From the NCBI RefSeq assembly GCF_044647545.1, contig NZ_CP172818.1: a stretch of DNA of 64,000 bases; one strand, given 5' to 3'. This DNA is from Escherichia coli. Its GTDB lineage: Bacteria; Pseudomonadota; Gammaproteobacteria; Enterobacterales; Enterobacteriaceae. Numbering within the stretch: position 1 is the first letter of the stretch; every line of letters begins with the position of its first letter. This document shows, in pieces, positions 3,518-47,770 of this stretch. The notes beneath the pieces were generated by a model. That model did no database searches. It saw only the letters and a list, made by a program, of their open reading frames with translations, and had not been told where the DNA came from. Position numbers and translations under genes: made by a program.

Positions 3518-3919
3518 ATGGAAATCAGTCTGTTGCAGGCATTCGCGTTGGGCATTATCGCCTTTATCGCTGGCCTGGATATGTTTAACGGCCTAACCCA
3601 TATGCACCGCCCGGTGGTCCTCGGCCCGTTGGTCGGGCTGGTACTTGGCGATCTGCATACCGGTATTTTAACCGGCGGTACGCTGGAACTGGTGTGGATG
3701 GGGCTGGCCCCGCTGGCGGGCGCACAGCCGCCTAACGTGATTATCGGTACTATCGTCGGCACGGCGTTTGCCATTACTACTGGCGTGAAACCCGATGTCG
3801 CGGTCGGTGTCGCCGTACCTTTCGCTGTCGCAGTACAGATGGGGATTACCTTCCTGTTCTCGGTGATGTCCGGCGTGATGTCCCGCGGCGACCTGGCAAC
3901 AAACCCGTGCCGCGTTTGA
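3518..3919 (+). pseudogene. agaW: agaW' fragment of PTS EIIC component (N-terminal part only)
   Basis: 133-aa ORF with IIC-like transmembrane N-terminus that terminates prematurely; matches the truncated agaW of K-12, where agaE/agaF are missing. Confidence 0.8.
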
Positions 3920-6986: not shown

Positions 6987-7463
6987 ATGAGCAGTCCAAA
7001 TATTCTCTTAACCCGTATTGATAACCGTCTGGTTCACGGTCAGGTTGGCGTGACCTGGACATCCACCATCGGTGCGAATCTGTTGGTAGTCGTGGATGAT
7101 GTTGTCGCTAACGATGATATTCAACAGAAATTAATGGGTATTACCGCAGAAACCTACGGCTTTGGCATTCGTTTCTTTACTATCGAAAAAACCATTAACG
7201 TCATCGGCAAAGCTGCACCGCATCAGAAGATCTTCCTGATTTGCCGTACGCCACAAACGGTACGTAAATTGGTAGAAGGTGGTATTGACCTGAAAGATGT
7301 CAACGTCGGCAATATGCATTTCTCGGAAGGGAAAAAGCAAATCAGCAGTAAAGTTTATGTCGATGACCAGGATCTCACGGACTTACATTTTATTAAACAA
7401 CGTGGCGTGAATGTTTTCATTCAGGACGTCCCTGGCGATCAAAAAGAACAAATCCCTGACTAA
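6987..7463 (+). CDS. agaB: AgaB, PTS galactosamine-specific EIIB component
   Basis: 158-aa ORF; paralogous to AgaV (RIDNRLVHGQVG motif). Confidence 0.92.
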   Translation: MSSPNILLTRIDNRLVHGQVGVTWTSTIGANLLVVVDDVVANDDIQQKLMGITAETYGFGIRFFTIEKTINVIGKAAPHQKIFLICRTPQTVRKLVEGGIDLKDVNVGNMHFSEGKKQISSKVYVDDQDLTDLHFIKQRGVNVFIQDVPGDQKEQIPD

Positions 7464-7501
7464 ATCTAAAATCGCCTTAATATTGGTTTGAGGTAATAAA
7501 A

Positions 7502-8305
7502 ATGCATGAAATAACCCTACTCCAGGGATTATCCCTGGCGGCGTTAGTTTTCTTTCTGGGGATTGATTTTTGGCTGGAAGCCTTATTTTTATTCCGCCCG
7601 ATAATCGTTTGTACCCTTACAGGTGCTATTCTCGGTGATATTCAGACTGGCTTAATTACCGGTGGCCTGACAGAGTTGGCTTTCGCCGGATTAACCCCTG
7701 CAGGTGGTGTTCAGCCGCCCAACCCTATTATGGCGGGTCTGATGACCACTGTCATTGCATGGTCTACGGGCGTTGATGCCAAAACGGCAATTGGTCTTGG
7801 CCTGCCGTTTAGTTTGTTAATGCAGTACGTCATTCTGTTCTTCTATTCCGCTTTCTCATTATTTATGACCAAAGCCGATAAATGCGCAAAAGAGGCGGAT
7901 ACGGCAGCATTTTCCCGACTTAACTGGACAACGATGCTCATCGTCGCTTCAGCGTATGCGGTGATTGCTTTCCTCTGTACTTACCTGGCACAAGGGGCGA
8001 TGCAGGCGCTGGTGAAAGCGATGCCCGCTTGGCTGACCCACGGCTTTGAAGTGGCTGGCGGTATTCTGCCTGCCGTTGGTTTTGGCTTGCTGCTGCGCGT
8101 GATGTTCAAAGCGCAATATATCCCTTACCTGATCGCCGGTTTCCTGTTCGTTTGCTACATCCAGGTCAGCAACCTGTTGCCGGTTGCCGTGCTGGGTGCA
8201 GGCTTTGCGGTGTATGAGTTTTTCAATGCGAAATCCCGGCAGCAAGCGCAACCGCAGTCCGTTGTCAGTAATAATGAAGAAGAGGACTACAGCAATGGGA
8301 TCTGA
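7502..8305 (+). CDS. agaC: AgaC, PTS galactosamine-specific EIIC component
   Basis: 267-aa hydrophobic ORF. Confidence 0.92.
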   Translation: MHEITLLQGLSLAALVFFLGIDFWLEALFLFRPIIVCTLTGAILGDIQTGLITGGLTELAFAGLTPAGGVQPPNPIMAGLMTTVIAWSTGVDAKTAIGLGLPFSLLMQYVILFFYSAFSLFMTKADKCAKEADTAAFSRLNWTTMLIVASAYAVIAFLCTYLAQGAMQALVKAMPAWLTHGFEVAGGILPAVGFGLLLRVMFKAQYIPYLIAGFLFVCYIQVSNLLPVAVLGAGFAVYEFFNAKSRQQAQPQSVVSNNEEEDYSNGI

Positions 8306-9086
8306 AATCAGTAAAAAAGATATCACCCGTCTGGGCTTTCGTTCGTCACTGCTGCAAGCGAGCTTTAACTACGAAAGGATGCAGGCGGGCGGTTTTACCT
8401 GGGCGATGTTGCCGATCCTGAAAAAGATTTATAAGGACGACAAACCGGGCCTAAGCGCGGCGATGAAAGATAACCTCGAATTTATTAATACCCACCCGAA
8501 TCTGGTCGGATTCCTGATGGGGTTATTAATTTCGATGGAAGAAAAAGGAGAAAACCGCGACACCATTAAAGGCCTCAAAGTGGCACTGTTTGGCCCAATC
8601 GCCGGGATTGGCGATGCGATTTTCTGGTTTACCTTATTGCCGATTATGGCGGGAATTTGCTCATCATTTGCCAGCCAGGGAAACTTGCTGGGGCCGATTC
8701 TATTTTTCGCCGTTTACCTGCTTATCTTCTTCCTGCGCGTCGGCTGGACCCACGTCGGTTATTCAGTCGGCGTGAAGGCTATTGATAAAGTGCGAGAGAA
8801 CTCGCAGATGATTGCTCGTTCGGCAACCATCCTCGGGATCACGGTAATCGGCGGGCTGATCGCTTCGTATGTGCATATTAACGTGGTGACATCGTTTGCC
8901 ATCGACAGTACCCACAGCGTCGCACTGCAGCAGGATTTCTTCGATAAAGTCTTCCCGAACATTTTACCGATGGCCTACACCCTGCTGATGTATTACTTCC
9001 TGCGGGTGAAAAAAGCGCATCCGGTGCTGTTAATCGGCGTGACTTTTGTGCTCTCTATTGTTTGTTCCGCATTCGGCATTTTGTAA
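8295..9086 (+). CDS. agaD: AgaD, PTS galactosamine-specific EIID component
   Basis: ATG at 8295 (MGSEISKKDITRLGF...), 263 aa, overlapping the agaC 3' end by 11 nt; the track ORF begins 37 codons upstream. Confidence 0.9.
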   Translation: MGSEISKKDITRLGFRSSLLQASFNYERMQAGGFTWAMLPILKKIYKDDKPGLSAAMKDNLEFINTHPNLVGFLMGLLISMEEKGENRDTIKGLKVALFGPIAGIGDAIFWFTLLPIMAGICSSFASQGNLLGPILFFAVYLLIFFLRVGWTHVGYSVGVKAIDKVRENSQMIARSATILGITVIGGLIASYVHINVVTSFAIDSTHSVALQQDFFDKVFPNILPMAYTLLMYYFLRVKKAHPVLLIGVTFVLSIVCSAFGIL

Positions 9087-9953
9087 ATGGAACGAGGCAC
9101 TGCGTCTGGCGGTGCCTCTTTACTTAAGGAATTTCATCCTGTGCAAACCCTTCAACAAGTTGAAAACTATACGGCGTTAAGTGAACGTGCCAGCGAATAT
9201 TTATTGGCCGTGATCCGTAGTAAACCGGATGCCGTGATTTGCCTGGCGACCGGAGCCACGCCATTACTGACGTATCATTATCTGGTAGAAAAAATCCACC
9301 AGCAGCAGGTTGATGTCAGCCAGCTCACCTTCGTGAAGCTCGACGAATGGGTGGATCTGCCATTAACAATGCCTGGCACCTGCGAAACTTTCCTACAACA
9401 GCATATCGTGCAGCCGCTGGGGCTGCGTGAAGACCAGCTCATCAGCTTTCGCTCTGAAGAGATAAATGAGACAGAGTGCGAACGGGTAACGAACCTGATT
9501 GCGCGCAAAGGCGGTCTGGATTTATGCGTTCTCGGATTGGGGAAAAACGGTCATCTTGGGCTGAACGAACCGGGAGAAAGCCTGCAACCGGCCTGCCATA
9601 TCAGTCAACTTGATGCCAGAACACAGCAACATGAGATGTTAAAAACCGCGGGCCGTCCCGTGACTCGTGGGATCACCTTAGGCCTGAAGGATATTCTCAA
9701 TACCCGCGAAGTTTTGCTACTGGTGACTGGCGAAGGAAAGCAGGATGCGACAGAACGTTTTCTCACGGCTAAAGTCTCTACCGCTATCCCGGCTTCTTGG
9801 GGCAACGCCCACACTCTCCCCCTGCTGCTCCAGTGCATACTTATACAGCGCATTTTTCTTCACGCCGTGAATTTCTGCTGCCAGCGCCGCCGCTTTTTTC
9901 AGTGGCAGTTCTGCCTGCAACAGCGCCAGCGTGCGCAGGGCATCGGCGGGTAA
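9087..9953 (+). CDS. agaI: AgaI-like galactosamine-6-phosphate isomerase/deaminase (NagB family) with altered 3' end: after about codon 238 the ORF is translation of antisense rsmI
   Basis: NagB-family ORF, ATG at 9087. Reference AgaI is recalled as 251 aa; here the frame stays open to 9953 (288 aa) and the tail ...[36 protein letters not shown]... is not NagB-like. Confidence 0.7.
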
Positions 9954-10676
9954 GTCTTCTTCCTGTGCTTTATGGCCTTCGACAATCAGTACCATTTCGC
10001 CTTTGCGACGGTTTTCATCTTCTTTGACCCACGCCAGCAGCTCGCCAACGGGCGCGCCGTGAATGGTTTCCCAGGTTTTGGTCAGCTCACGCGCCAGAAC
10101 GACGTAGCGGGATTCGCCTAATACCGCAACGATATCTTCCAGGCTATCTAACAGACGGTGGGTAGATTCATAAAAAATCAGCGTGCGCGGCTCCGCTTCA
10201 ATGGCTTTTAGCGCATCACGGCGGCCTTTTGATTTGGCAGGTAAAAAGCCTTCATAACAAAAACGATCGGATGGTAAACCCGCGGCGCTTAACGCAGTGA
10301 TAGCAGCACACGGCCCGGGTAGCGGCACCACGCGAATCCCCGCTTCACGGCAGGTACGCACCAGATGGTAGCCAGGATCGTTAATTAGCGGCGTTCCGGC
10401 ATCGGAAACCAGCGCAATGTTTTGCCCCTCTTGCAGCTTCGCCAGCAGCGTTTCGGCTTTTTGTTGTTCGTTATGGTCGTGCAGCGCAAACAACCGAGCA
10501 TTAATCCCAAAATGTTGCAGCAATAAACCGGTGTGACGCGTATCCTCGGCGGCAATCAGATCAACGGCCTGTAATACCTCCAACGCACGCTGGGTGATAT
10601 CCGCCAGATTGCCGATTGGCGTCGGTACAATGTAAAGCTGGCCCTGAGAATTATCCGCCGATTGGTGTTGTTTCAT
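9717..10676 (-). CDS. rsmI: RsmI 16S rRNA 2'-O-ribose C1402 methyltransferase, with a C-terminal read-through tail into antisense agaI
   Basis: 319-aa ORF versus a recalled 286 aa for RsmI; N-terminus [35 protein letters not shown]... recognised; the tail after ...KYALEQQGE is antisense of agaI. Confidence 0.8.
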
Positions 10677-14325: not shown

Positions 14326-14440
14326 GCCATTGATCGGTCGTTGAAGTAAATATTCACACCTTAGCCGACCTGTTCCCCTCACCCTAACCCTCCCCAAACC
14401 GAAAGGGGACAGATCAGGCTGTATTCAGGAGCATCCAACA

Positions 14441-15481
14441 TCAGGCCAACAGCGCCAACCCGCCGACAATCACACCAGACACTGCCACCATCGCCCCTGT
14501 CAGCCATAAGGCTTTCGCCGGGAACGCTTTGCGCAGCATAATCAGTGACGGCAAACTCACCGCCGGGAGCGTCATCAACAATGCCAGCGCCGGAGCGGTT
14601 CCCATGCCTGCCAGCATCATCGTTTGTACAATCGGAATTTCTGCTGCCGTGGGAATGACAAACAAGCATCCTGCCACCGCCATCGCCACCACCCACATCA
14701 GGCTGTTATCGACAGCACCATCGGCATGGGGGAATAACCAGACGCGAGCGGCACCCAACACCAGTACTGCAAGGATGTAAACCGGGATCGTACTCCAGAA
14801 AAGCGTCCATAGCGCCCTGCCCCAGCGGCTAAAAAATCCTCCCTGTGCTTCCGGTATGTCAATTTCGACCGGTGCCTGCGTTTGCGGTGTTTCACGCACC
14901 CATTTTTGCACCAGCGTCGCAATCAGCAACACCATCACCAGCCCCGCCACCAGACGAATCGCGGCAAAGCCCCAGCCAAGGACAAATCCCATGAATACCA
15001 GCGTCGCCGGGTTTAACAACGGATTCCCCATCCAGAATGCCAGCGCGCCCCCCATCGATACCTGTTGACGCCGCATTCCCGCCGCGACCGGAGCCGCACA
15101 GCAGGTACACATCATGCCCGGCAGCGAAAACAGCGTTCCCAGCAGCGTGCCGCGAAAGCGCGATTGCCCAAGCGTACGCAATAACCAGTCACGCGGGATC
15201 AGCACCTGAATCAACGACCCGAGCAGTACGCCCAGCACCGCCGCTTTCCATACCGCGAGGAAATAGATCATCGCGTAATCCAACGCCGCCTGCCACGGAT
15301 TAGCATCCGCCTGCGCAAGGATAGATTTACCGATACTGTGGGTTTCGGCAGCAGTAAACGCTTTGCCGTAGTAAGGTTGCCATTTCACATACCAGAGACC
15401 AGCAATGACAACGAGAAAGAAAAGCGCGGGTTTCCACCACTGAATGGGCGTTGCCGCCTGAGATGAAGACTGACCAGTCAT
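14441..15481 (-). CDS. yraQ: YraQ putative permease
   Basis: 346-aa hydrophobic ORF. Confidence 0.88.
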   Translation of the reverse strand: MTGQSSSQAATPIQWWKPALFFLVVIAGLWYVKWQPYYGKAFTAAETHSIGKSILAQADANPWQAALDYAMIYFLAVWKAAVLGVLLGSLIQVLIPRDWLLRTLGQSRFRGTLLGTLFSLPGMMCTCCAAPVAAGMRRQQVSMGGALAFWMGNPLLNPATLVFMGFVLGWGFAAIRLVAGLVMVLLIATLVQKWVRETPQTQAPVEIDIPEAQGGFFSRWGRALWTLFWSTIPVYILAVLVLGAARVWLFPHADGAVDNSLMWVVAMAVAGCLFVIPTAAEIPIVQTMMLAGMGTAPALALLMTLPAVSLPSLIMLRKAFPAKALWLTGAMVAVSGVIVGGLALLA

Positions 15482-16304: not shown

Positions 16305-16814
<510 letters not shown>

Positions 16815-28559: not shown

Positions 28560-28745
28560 TAATACCCGATCTTCTGCGCATCCTCGCGACTAATGACAAC
28601 CCTAACCCAGCCCAATGTGGGTAAAGCCTCTCATTAGCCGCGCGAACCTCTGCAACGGAAGATCATTCATAGCAACAATACATTAGTTTCCAGTGAATTG
28701 CTGCCGTCAGCTTGAAAAAAGGGGCCACTCAGGCCCCCTTTTCTG
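28560..28745 (+). ncRNA. psrO: PsrO (SraG) small RNA, approximate boundaries
   Basis: Recalled position of SraG in the rpsO-pnp intergenic region, opposite strand to both genes; no independent sequence signature verified. Confidence 0.35.
28713..28745 (-). terminator. rpsO Rho-independent terminator
   Basis: gaaaaaaggggccactcaggccccctttt hairpin 14 nt downstream of the rpsO stop. Confidence 0.7.
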
Positions 28746-28758
28746 AAACTCGCAAGAA

Positions 28759-29124
<366 letters not shown>

Positions 29125-30597: not shown

Positions 30598-30672
30598 TGG
30601 CCTGATAAGACGCGCCAGCGTCGCATCAGGCAATCCATGCCGGATGCGGCGTAAACGCCTTATCCCGCATGG
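30598..30672. repeat. REP elements in the infB-rbfA spacer
   Basis: gcctgataagacgcgccagcgtcgcatcaggc and gccggatgcggcgtaaacgccttatcccgcatgg. Confidence 0.7.
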
Positions 30673-35350: not shown

Positions 35351-35410
35351 GCCCACCCCCAAGACATAAAAAAAGGGCCTAAAGCCCAGTTATTCTGTAG
35401 TCAGATAACA

Positions 35411-35434
35411 AAAAACCCCGATAAATCGGGGCTT
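35411..35434 (-). terminator. Hairpin with T-run between metY and rimP (attenuator/terminator)
   Basis: Minus strand agccccgatttatcggggtttttt. Confidence 0.55.
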
Positions 35435-35556
35435 TATATAACTGAACCCTATAACCGCAACTGCGGTCTGGAGCACTTTCCAGAAGGATTTTTTCAAATC
35501 CCACTACGAAGGCCGAAGTCTTCACAGTATATTTGAAAAAGGACTCTAAGGGAAAG

Positions 35557-46057: not shown

Positions 46058-46305
46058 TTGTTATACCTCTTGAATATTCCTGATGGGGCAAGTCTTCACC
46101 CACCCCGGCTGTTCGGCCTGCCCGGCATAACTCCTCACCGGGACCAGAAGCAAAAAAAATACCGACCCGGGTACAGGTCCCAGGTCAGCTACAATTCACA
46201 TTTTGATAGTCATTTTACCCTGAAGTTCCCGAAGGGTCATCGTTTACTTTATAGGGCGTTGCGCCGTAGTATGACGGCTCGATTCCAGGTTGTTAGCGCG
46301 AGATT

Positions 46306-47749: not shown

Positions 47750-47770
47750 ACCCCGGCACATGGCCGGGGT
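47750..47770. terminator. Bidirectional terminator hairpin between convergent dacB and obgE
   Basis: aaaccccggcacatggccggggtg. Confidence 0.55.

What the first reader, a model, noticed from the sequence alone, without database searches (positions are those of the whole stretch)
9717..9953. agaI and rsmI ORFs run 237 nt into each other; the yraHIJK fimbrial operon expected between them in K-12 is missing
Seen in sequence: the agaI ORF (9087-9953) and the convergent rsmI ORF (9717-10676) overlap antisense for 237 nt with no intergenic DNA. AgaI stays NagB-like up to the conserved Trp at codon 238 (ends at 9800), then reads [50 protein letters not shown], which is simply the antisense of the RsmI C-terminus. 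RsmI after ...KYALEQQGE (about residue 287) continues for 32 residues that are the antisense of agaI. From memory of the K-12 map, agaI (b3141) is followed by yraH, yraI, yraJ and yraK (b3142-b3145, a chaperone-usher fimbrial operon) and only then rsmI (b3146), with AgaI about 251 aa and RsmI about 286 aa. This is the signature of a roughly 5 kb scarless deletion with its junction near 9798-9836; no FRT, lox or IS scar is present. It would inactivate or alter AgaI, extend RsmI and remove a cryptic fimbrial operon. Natural strain variation and a reduced-genome or engineered K-12 derivative are both possible.
Basis: partly seen in the sequence, partly recalled or inferred. Interest (0 to 1): 0.75.

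Follow-up and report, generated by a model that had tools for sequence, protein, structure and literature searches.

The report
Reference-guided assembly scar, agaI–rsmI junction
The two genes that seem to run 237 bases into each other are real in the deposited sequence, but they are almost certainly a stitching error made when a non-K-12 E. coli genome was rebuilt on a K-12 template, so this is not a biological deletion or a new gene arrangement.

Summary
The ORF geometry is as described: 9087-9953 (+) and 9717-10676 (-) overlap by 237 nt, and yraHIJK is absent. The interpretation does not hold. The window is not K-12. It is 99.96-100% identical to ST648-type (phylogroup F) E. coli. In those strains, in about a third of all complete E. 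coli genomes and in E. albertii, agaI (255 aa) and rsmI (287 aa) are natural neighbours separated by a conserved 49-bp hairpin spacer. The window has a private lesion: 108 bp replaced by 15 unmatched bases, plus two extra C. No other genome searched has it.

K-12 and the ST648 relative differ by exactly four large or non-homologous blocks in these 64 kb. The window departs from ST648 at exactly those four blocks and otherwise by one SNP. It follows ST648 at 1,149 SNPs and 10 small indels. Relative to K-12 it only loses blocks and gains none. A K-12-specific base remains at the junction edge, and it helps shift rsmI's stop out of frame. A second deposit (CP147423.1), from a different strain, shows the same pattern.

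Best explanation (about 0.88): an artefact of K-12-guided genome reconstruction. Interest is low.

The parts
9087..9796 (+). Genuine agaI sequence, codons 1-237 of a native 255. The ORF continues to 9953 only because the native end and stop are missing.
   Evidence: 100% identical to agaI of FDAARGOS_497 (L003 11005-13649 aligns to window 7152-9796 with no difference). NagB-family match to B. subtilis NagB 2bkv.
9797..9811 (.). 15-nt filler (TTGGGGCAACGCCCA) that replaces 108 nt of the native locus: the last 18 AgaI codons and stop, the 49-bp spacer and the first base of the rsmI stop triplet. Only GCAACGCC resembles the native hairpin's right arm.
   Evidence: No match across the junction in 5,426 complete E. 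coli genomes, GTDB species representatives or JGI metagenomes. No other copy in the window. No local template on either strand.
9812..9819 (-). Stitch point at the rsmI 3' end. The strain-type CACTCTC abuts the K-12-type CCCCTGCTG, giving a run of 5 C where the native allele has 3 and K-12 has 4. The two extra bases (9818-9819) shift the frame, and the native stop triplet TCA (TGA on the coding strand) reads ACA at 9811-9813.
   Evidence: +CC; the k-mer CCCCTGCTGCTCCAG at window 9819 is absent from ST648 but present in K-12 at position 16482, the edge of the yra block. The same k-mer occurs at L015:14321 in CP147423.1. One search gives the three-way view.
9820..10676 (-). Genuine rsmI coding sequence (residues 1 to about 285).
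   Evidence: Identical to ST648 rsmI. Residues 1-286 are identical to E. coli RsmI in PDB 9pzg_V.
9717..9815 (-). 32-codon read-through tail of the rsmI ORF plus its stop ([32 protein letters not shown]), antisense to agaI.
   Evidence: The 319-aa product is on record once, from one NCBI contig of 4,499,902 bp, with no accession and no Logan or ENA copy.
9798..9953 (+). 51-codon read-through tail of the agaI ORF plus its stop, antisense to rsmI.
   Evidence: The 288-aa product is not in the 15-billion-protein collection.
3884..3893 (+). Same artefact class: junction of a 2,295-bp gap (agaW 3' end, agaE, agaF, agaA 5' end) at the exact nucleotide position of the K-12 deletion, but with ST648-type bases on both sides.
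   Evidence: Among complete genomes this junction is found only in K-12-type genomes, at 96.7% identity or less.
14393..14443 (.). Same artefact class: scrambled part of the dolP-yraQ spacer, inside the block where K-12 (REP-type, 120 nt) and ST648 (boxC-like hairpin, 128 nt) are non-homologous.
   Evidence: The allele is unique; the best match in 5,426 genomes is 89.6%.
47769..47770 (.). Same artefact class: K-12's 149-151-bp REP block between dacB and obgE is excised cleanly, but the strain's own 6 nt (TTTTGC) are not put in its place.

Best explanation
The window comes from a deposited 'genome' (an NCBI contig of 4,499,902 bp) that was reconstructed from reads of an ST648-like, phylogroup F E. 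coli, using a K-12-lineage genome as template. The method could have been iterative mapping with consensus calling, or polishing with local reassembly.

Such a procedure converts SNPs and small indels to the sample's state. It cannot add long sample-specific DNA, and it resolves non-homologous blocks poorly.

At agaI/rsmI the template carries the 5.5-kb yraHIJK island, while the real strain has a 99-nt non-homologous block: the agaI tail, the 49-bp hairpin spacer and the rsmI stop. The island was removed, but the true block was not rebuilt. A short garbled stretch was stitched to the K-12 anchor CCCCTGCTG instead.

The stitch drops agaI's last 18 codons and stop. It also adds two bases at the end of rsmI, so both ORFs read through into each other's antisense strand until a chance stop, which produces the 237-nt overlap.

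Shown here: the coincidence of every deviation with a K-12/ST648 structural difference, the leftover K-12 base, and the replicate assembly. Inferred: the software route, and that the living strain has intact agaI, spacer, rsmI and the full aga cluster.
For: (1) Over 64 kb the window matches ST648-type FDAARGOS_497 at 99.96-100%. It differs only at the aga gap, the agaI/rsmI junction, the dolP/yraQ spacer, the dacB/obgE spacer and one SNP, plus the reference's own IS1.

(2) Apart from that reference-only IS1, K-12 and ST648 differ in this region by exactly four large or non-homologous blocks, at those same four places. They also differ by 1,149 SNPs and 10 small indels, and at all of these the window follows ST648. 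Four independent private events would coincide with those blocks by chance at about 1e-9.

(3) Against K-12 the window forms three colinear segments. It lacks only two K-12 blocks (5,498 bp and 151 bp) and gains nothing large.

(4) The aga gap sits at K-12's exact junction nucleotide, with ST648 bases right up to it. No non-K-12-type genome among 5,426 has this junction.

(5) At dacB/obgE the window equals K-12 minus its REP block, without the strain's TTTTGC.

(6) A K-12-specific k-mer (CCCCTGCTGCTCCAG, K-12 position 16482, the island edge) sits at 9819 and accounts for the extra C that frameshift rsmI.

(7) Independent replicate: CP147423.1 (4,553,923 bp) is 99.9% identical to the natural 5.02-Mb strain HS4. 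It has the same 2,295-bp aga gap, a different collapse inside the same non-homologous block, the same K-12 k-mer at the edge (rsmI 303 aa), and two private 'SNPs' that are K-12 alleles.

(8) Both contigs (4.50 and 4.55 Mb) are shorter than the K-12 record compared here (4.63 Mb) and far shorter than their natural relatives (4.9-5.4 Mb). Neither is in the RefSeq complete-genome set. Their junction proteins are NCBI-only, without accessions and without a Logan read-assembly copy.

(9) The native spacer is conserved across E. coli phylogroups and in E. albertii. The window's junction was found nowhere else.
Against: I could not see the reads, the assembly-method field of the record or the rest of the contig, so the pipeline is inferred.

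The dolP/yraQ spacer contains about 68 nt of correct non-K-12 sequence. The method must therefore be able to rebuild some novel sequence, which plain consensus calling cannot do and which requires local reassembly or iterative walking.

I cannot derive the 15-nt filler base by base from K-12 plus ST648.

Spacers between convergent genes that carry hairpins or REP elements are naturally hypervariable. That weakens the chance calculation somewhat, but it does not explain the K-12-exact states.
Confidence: 0.88

Rival explanations
1. A real, private microdeletion in a living ST648-like strain. An in vivo event (slippage at the TTC...TTC microhomology, or error-prone end joining with filler) removed 108 bp at the convergent agaI/rsmI junction. 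This made agaI a pseudogene in an already decayed aga regulon and extended RsmI by 32 residues.
For: The rest of the window is clean, with no scattered indel noise. TTC microhomology flanks the missing segment. agaI is dispensable and recurrently broken in nature; it is split in O157:H7 (PMC3668189). The aga regulon in the window is also disabled, which would relax selection on agaI.
Against: It needs at least five extra changes within 40 nt beyond a simple deletion. It does not explain why all four private structural deviations fall on K-12/ST648 structural differences, why a K-12-specific base sits at the edge, why the aga gap is K-12-exact, or why an unrelated strain's deposit shows the same pattern. 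No template-switch signature was found. The junction is absent from every other collection searched.
Confidence: 0.07
2. One reading: an in vivo, roughly 5-kb deletion of yraHIJK, natural or engineered, in a K-12-like or yra-positive ancestor of this strain.
For: Relative to K-12 a 5,498-bp block is missing at this junction. The C-run at the rsmI end is closer to the yra-positive allele. The ~4.5-Mb contig suggests a reduced genome.
Against: The flanks are ST648-type, not K-12 (97.4-97.9% against 99.96-100%). The closest relatives and the outgroup E. albertii lack yraHIJK and have an intact conserved spacer, so by parsimony no yra operon was there to delete. The right side keeps the yra-less-specific CACTCTC. 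There is no recombinase scar, but the junction is not scarless either.
Confidence: 0.02
3. A real chimeric organism: a K-12 recipient whose chromosome was almost entirely overwritten by phylogroup F donor DNA through recombination, keeping K-12 structure but donor alleles.
For: K-12 structure combined with ST648 alleles throughout.
Against: Homologous recombination would carry the donor's or the recipient's structural state intact. It would not place donor SNPs within 2-10 nt of a K-12 deletion junction, and it would not scramble non-homologous spacers. Two such chimeras from different donors with the same failures are implausible.
Confidence: 0.02

Closest known systems
Natural yra-less agaI-rsmI locus (E. 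coli IAI39, CE10, ST648 strains, Nissle 1917; E. albertii NBRC 107761)
   Same: Same gene order with no yraHIJK. agaI codons 1-237 and rsmI codons 1 to about 285 are identical to the ST648 alleles.
   Different: The natural locus has agaI of 255 aa, a 49-bp spacer with an 11-bp-stem hairpin (-23 kcal/mol for the 71-nt stretch around it) and rsmI of 287 aa. The window has 15 unmatched bases instead of 108 bp, plus two extra C, so both stops are lost.
E. coli K-12 MG1655 agaI-yraHIJK-rsmI locus
   Same: The window shares K-12's structure wherever K-12 lacks DNA (the aga 2.3-kb gap at the identical nucleotide). It also keeps a K-12 base at the island's right edge.
   Different: K-12 carries the 5.5-kb chaperone-usher operon, with AgaI of 251 aa and RsmI of 286 aa. 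The window's nucleotide alleles are ST648-type, about 2% from K-12.
Reference bias and stitching errors in reference-guided or template-polished genome reconstructions (a general, well-known class; stated from my own knowledge)
   Same: The sample's SNPs and small indels are recovered. Sample-specific insertions are missing. Template-specific blocks are removed or garbled at their edges. The total length is no greater than the template's. The failures repeat at the same template coordinates in different samples.
   Different: The exact tool is unknown. About 68 nt of non-template spacer were rebuilt correctly at dolP/yraQ, so some local assembly was involved.
Sibling deposit CP147423.1 (GCA_037201865.1)
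   Same: Same aga gap and the same AgaW' fusion protein. The same spacer is collapsed, the same K-12 k-mer sits at the edge and the rsmI stop is lost.
   Different: A different underlying strain, about 1.2% diverged and closest to HS4-type genomes. The collapse is less severe (75 nt replaced by 2, +1 C, RsmI 303 aa) and there is an extra frameshift in kbaZ.

Membership tests
Reference-guided (K-12 template) reconstruction artefact | The sequence follows the sample, not the template, at SNPs and small indels | tested here: met
   The window agrees with ST648 at the 1,149 mismatches and 10 small gaps that separate ST648 from K-12. Only one private SNP remains.
Reference-guided (K-12 template) reconstruction artefact | All sample DNA that is absent from the template is missing, with junctions at the template's own coordinates | tested here: met
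   The only such block in the window region, the 2,295-bp agaW-agaA segment, is missing at K-12's exact junction. TTTTGC at dacB/obgE is also missing.
Reference-guided (K-12 template) reconstruction artefact | Deviations from the true relatives are confined to blocks where template and sample are non-homologous | tested here: met
   Four of four structural deviations fall on the four K-12/ST648 blocks. The chance estimate is about 1e-9.
Reference-guided (K-12 template) reconstruction artefact | Leftover template-specific bases at the block edges | tested here: met
   CCCCTGCTGCTCCAG at 9819 equals K-12 position 16482 and is absent from ST648. The same k-mer occurs in CP147423.1, which also has two K-12 alleles among its private SNPs.
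Reference-guided (K-12 template) reconstruction artefact | The same failures recur at the same template coordinates in an independent sample | tested here: met
   CP147423.1 compared with its natural relative HS4.
Reference-guided (K-12 template) reconstruction artefact | Read-level evidence (clipped reads or coverage breaks at the junction) and the declared assembly method | not testable with these tools
   No reads or record metadata were available. Literature searches for the accession and the contig length found nothing.
Engineered or reduced-genome K-12 derivative with a scarless deletion | K-12 nucleotide identity in the flanks | tested here: not met
   97.4-97.9% identity to K-12, against 99.96-100% to ST648.
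Engineered or reduced-genome K-12 derivative with a scarless deletion | A clean junction, or a recombinase scar (FRT or loxP) | tested here: not met
   The junction has a 15-nt unmatched filler and a +2 insertion. There is no FRT or loxP site in the window.
Functional convergent overlapping gene pair | The overlap is conserved in relatives | tested here: not met
   The junction was not found in any of the 5,426 complete E. coli genomes, the GTDB representatives or the JGI metagenomes. Relatives have a 49-bp spacer. The read-through lengths are as expected by chance.
NagB/AgaI sugar-phosphate deaminase/isomerase fold (ORF 9087-9953) | A complete fold, including the C-terminal segment (AgaI 238-251, aligned to B. 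subtilis NagB 222-235) | tested here: not met
   The native AgaI aligns to 2bkv through residue 251 (…FLWLHNHFTCVIDE against …ALHLHSDVTVLIDR). In the window ORF true homology ends at residue 237.
RsmI 16S rRNA C1402 2'-O-methyltransferase (ORF 9717-10676) | Full-length identity, including the C-terminal three-helix domain (CTD-alpha3, residues 274-286) | tested here: met
   Residues 1-286 are identical to PDB 9pzg_V. The 32-residue tail follows directly after alpha3, which contacts 16S helix 23b and is required for activity (PMC12407886).

The most novel reading that the evidence does not exclude
The deposited sequences are biologically correct. Two unrelated natural E. coli lineages with unusually small (~4.5 Mb) genomes have then convergently lost the same segments that K-12 lacks. 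The losses include the 2.3-kb aga segment at the identical nucleotide, and independent collapses of the conserved agaI-rsmI hairpin spacer. That would imply site-specific deletion hot spots, and it would give stop-loss RsmI variants with tails fused to the helix that binds rRNA helix 23b.
Probability: 0.05. Interest if true: 0.45.

Novelty: not a real feature. Interest (0 to 1): 0.07.

Why it matters
As biology, it matters little. The organism most likely has an ordinary agaI-spacer-rsmI locus, like its ST648 relatives.

Its value is as a warning. At least two GenBank 'complete' E. coli chromosomes (this window's 4.50-Mb source and CP147423.1) appear to be K-12-templated reconstructions. They create false pseudogenes, false stop-loss extensions, false 'K-12-like' deletions and false genome reduction.

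A genome scan will keep flagging such places. In this window they are 3884-3893, 9797-9819, 14393-14443 and 47769.

A simple screen follows from this: check whether a genome's private structural variants coincide with the indel map between a common reference and the genome's nearest natural relative.

A by-product is that the yra-less agaI-rsmI adjacency and its hairpin spacer are shared with E. albertii. By parsimony, yraHIJK is an insertion in K-12-type lineages rather than a loss elsewhere.

Tried and rejected
- Donor for the 15-nt filler: there is no other copy in the window with up to 3 mismatches, and no match in GTDB representatives or JGI metagenomes. Neither the yra-less nor the yra-positive spacer explains it (scores 69 and 66).
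- Template-switch or quasi-palindrome origin: no novel 8-mer or longer at the focal junction is found within 1.5 kb on either strand. The two hits at the dolP/yraQ site are within chance.
- Recombination import of a divergent natural allele: the spacer is conserved in B2, F and other lineages and in E. albertii, and none resembles the filler. Any import would have to be 25 nt or shorter.
- Random sequencing noise (homopolymer or long-read errors): rejected, because there are no scattered indels over 54 kb.
- 'Terminator' label for the native spacer: a simple intrinsic-terminator scan calls nothing in either allele, so I call it a hairpin only.
- Identifying the source record: an exact lookup of the 319-aa RsmI returned no contig. 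Paper searches for the contig length and for CP147423 or GCA_037201865 found nothing relevant.
- Wurpel et al. 2013 (PMC3559732) gave no usable text on Yra distribution, so I used my own census.
- Rfam found no RNA family at the junction.
- Early working idea, now superseded: a mutational process that targets hairpins between convergent genes. The K-12 comparison explains the clustering instead.

Full report
**1. The observation**

The window contains an ORF at 9087-9953 (+, 288 aa) and a convergent ORF at 9717-10676 (-, 319 aa). They overlap by 237 nt. The first is agaI-like and the second is rsmI. No yraHIJK genes lie between them. No FRT or loxP site is present.

The length of the overlap needs no explanation beyond the loss of two stop codons. 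The two ORFs share one codon register. In that register only CTA, TTA and TCA codons on the other strand create stops, so the mean open run is 23-24 codons. The observed read-throughs are 51 and 32 codons.

**2. What the locus looks like in real genomes**

A search of 5,426 complete E. coli genomes shows agaI and rsmI adjacent in 1,835 of them. In the rest they are split by the yra operon.

The window's closest relatives are ST648-type phylogroup F strains (FDAARGOS_497, MS6198, ECONIH1), along with IAI39 and CE10, at 99.9-100% identity. In these genomes agaI is 255 aa and rsmI is 287 aa. A 49-bp spacer carrying a GC-rich hairpin (GGCGTTGTAGC...GCTGCAACGCC) separates them.

That spacer is nearly invariant in B2, F and other lineages. 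It is also present, with the same gene lengths, in the E. albertii type strain and in a cryptic-clade Escherichia.

Absence of yraHIJK is thus normal for this lineage. By parsimony it is the older state, and K-12's operon is an insertion whose edges lie in agaI's last codons and at rsmI's last codon.

**3. What is abnormal**

Relative to ST648, 108 nt (L003 13650-13757) are replaced by 15 unmatched nt (window 9797-9811), and two extra C follow at 9818-9819.

This has several effects:
- AgaI loses residues 238-255 and its stop. Residues 238-251 align to the end of the NagB fold in B. subtilis NagB 2bkv.
- The spacer is lost.
- The rsmI stop no longer terminates the ORF: its triplet TCA reads ACA at 9811-9813, and the two extra C shift the frame.
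- RsmI residues 1-286 remain identical to the solved E. coli protein.

No complete E. coli genome, GTDB species representative or JGI metagenome contig has this junction.

A simple deletion at the flanking TTC microhomology would still need at least four further changes within 40 nt. No donor or local template for the filler exists.

**4. The rest of the window gives the key**

Over 64 kb the window differs from FDAARGOS_497 at only a few places:
- a 2,295-bp gap in the aga cluster;
- the junction above;
- a scrambled patch in the dolP-yraQ spacer (14393-14443);
- a missing TTTTGC between dacB and obgE (47769/47770);
- one SNP (32983);
- the reference's own IS1.

I first read the clustering at spacers between convergent genes as possible biology. 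Two facts pointed elsewhere.

First, the aga gap lies at the very nucleotide of the classical K-12 deletion, yet has ST648 bases on both sides. Among complete genomes that junction occurs only in K-12-type genomes, at 96.7% identity or less.

Second, an exact-protein lookup showed that the gap-spanning AgaW' fusion exists on only two contigs in a 15-billion-protein collection. One is 4,553,923 bp (CP147423.1). The other must be the window's source, because the window itself encodes this fusion; that source is the 4,499,902-bp contig on which the 319-aa RsmI is recorded. Both are NCBI-only, without protein accessions and without copies from read-level reassemblies. Both are shorter than the K-12 record compared here (4.63 Mb) and much shorter than their natural relatives, which are 4.9-5.4 Mb.

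**5. The test**

I aligned K-12, ST648 and the window across the whole region. K-12 and ST648 differ by exactly four large or non-homologous blocks, apart from the IS1 that only the ST648 reference carries:
- the aga 2.3-kb segment;
- the yra island against a 99-nt block;
- a REP-type against a boxC-like dolP-yraQ spacer;
- a 149-151-bp REP insert in K-12 at dacB/obgE.

The window departs from ST648 at exactly these four blocks. It follows ST648 at all 1,149 SNPs and all 10 small indels that separate the two genomes. The chance that four independent private events all land there is about 1e-9.

Against K-12 the window is three colinear segments. They lack two K-12 blocks (5,498 bp and 151 bp) and gain nothing large.

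At dacB/obgE the window is simply K-12 minus its REP block, without the strain's own six bases.

At the focal junction, the k-mer CCCCTGCTGCTCCAG at 9819 is absent from ST648 but present in K-12 at position 16482, which is the edge of the yra block. The strain's ...CACTCTC has been joined to K-12's CCCCTGCTG. This gives five C where the true allele has three, and that frameshift extends rsmI.

**6. A replicate**

CP147423.1 is about 1.2% diverged from the window. It is 99.9% identical to natural 5.0-5.2-Mb strains such as HS4.

Against HS4 it shows the same pattern:
- the same 2,295-bp aga gap;
- a different collapse (75 nt replaced by 2) inside the same K-12-non-homologous block;
- the same K-12 k-mer at the edge, giving four C and an RsmI of 303 aa;
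- two private 'SNPs' that are K-12 alleles.

Two different strains failing at the same K-12 coordinates is what a template-driven procedure predicts. Independent evolution does not predict it.

**7. Conclusion**

The best explanation (confidence about 0.88) is that the deposited sequence is a K-12-templated reconstruction of an ST648-like strain, and that the agaI/rsmI overlap is a stitching scar.

Shown: the coincidence of the sites, the leftover template base, the loss-only structure relative to K-12, and the replicate. Inferred: the software route, which must include some local reassembly because about 68 nt of non-K-12 spacer at dolP/yraQ are correct, and the true state of the strain.

**8. 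If the junction were real after all**

- agaI is dispensable for N-acetylgalactosamine and galactosamine use, and it is already split in O157:H7. The K-12-type aga gap alone gives an Aga- Gam- phenotype (PMC3668189).
- The RsmI tail would be attached directly to CTD-alpha3 (residues 274-286). That helix binds 16S helix 23b, and its removal abolishes C1402 methylation (PMC12407886). An effect on RsmI would therefore be conceivable, but it is untested.

**9. Verdict**

It is not a real biological feature, and interest is low. The practical lesson is to screen such deposits before reading their pseudogenes and 'deletions' as biology.

Noticed in passing
window 3884-3893: A 2,295-bp gap removes the agaW 3' end, agaE, agaF and the agaA 5' end at the exact nucleotide of the K-12 aga deletion, yet with ST648-type bases on both sides. 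This creates a 133-aa AgaW' fusion ORF (3518-3919), which is found on only two contigs in the protein collection.
   Followed up: yes
window 14393-14443: The dolP-yraQ spacer is scrambled, with seven small changes in about 55 nt. They weaken a CCCTCTCCCC/GGGGAGAGGG hairpin (-28 to -14 kcal/mol for the folded stretches) and turn yraQ's TAA stop into TGA. The allele is unique among 5,426 genomes and lies inside the block where K-12 has an unrelated REP-type spacer.
   Followed up: yes
window 47769-47770: Between dacB and obgE the window lacks both K-12's 149-151-bp REP block and the ST648 allele's TTTTGC. This removes the T-tract after the dacB hairpin.
   Followed up: yes
window 32983: A single isolated private SNP in infB (A, where both ST648 and K-12 have G). 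It is the only difference from ST648 in 54 kb that lies outside the K-12 structural blocks, and it is a G-to-A transition.
   Followed up: partly
L015 (CP147423.1, GCA_037201865.1), e.g. 1102, 3786, 6531, 6647, 6707, 6864, 7288, 10532, 15219: This sibling deposit has a frameshift that splits kbaZ (6707) and a 1-nt loss in an A-run (15219). Away from the two junctions, all its private substitutions are G:C-to-A:T transitions, and two of them are K-12 alleles. The transition bias could reflect damaged DNA, mutagenesis or low-coverage calls. I did not resolve which.
   Followed up: partly
L001 2356-2404; L005-L007; L011 4308-4356; L012: The native 49-bp agaI-rsmI spacer hairpin is conserved from E. 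coli B2 and F lineages to E. albertii. Its stem positions change only between wobble and Watson-Crick pairs (T-G to C-G, A-T to G-T), which hints at a structural constraint. By parsimony yraHIJK is an insertion in K-12-type lineages, with edges inside agaI's last codons and at rsmI's last codon.
   Followed up: partly
L003 10237-11004 (FDAARGOS_497): The closest complete relative has an IS1 inserted in agaB. The window and K-12 have the empty site, so this difference belongs to the reference and not to the window.
   Followed up: yes
window 28571-28742, 28972-29086, 30599-30669, 35368-35468, 46154-46275: The expected RNA elements are all present and full length: SraG, the S15 leader, naRNA4, the rimP leader, the greA leader and two tRNAs. 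Nothing unusual was seen.
   Followed up: no
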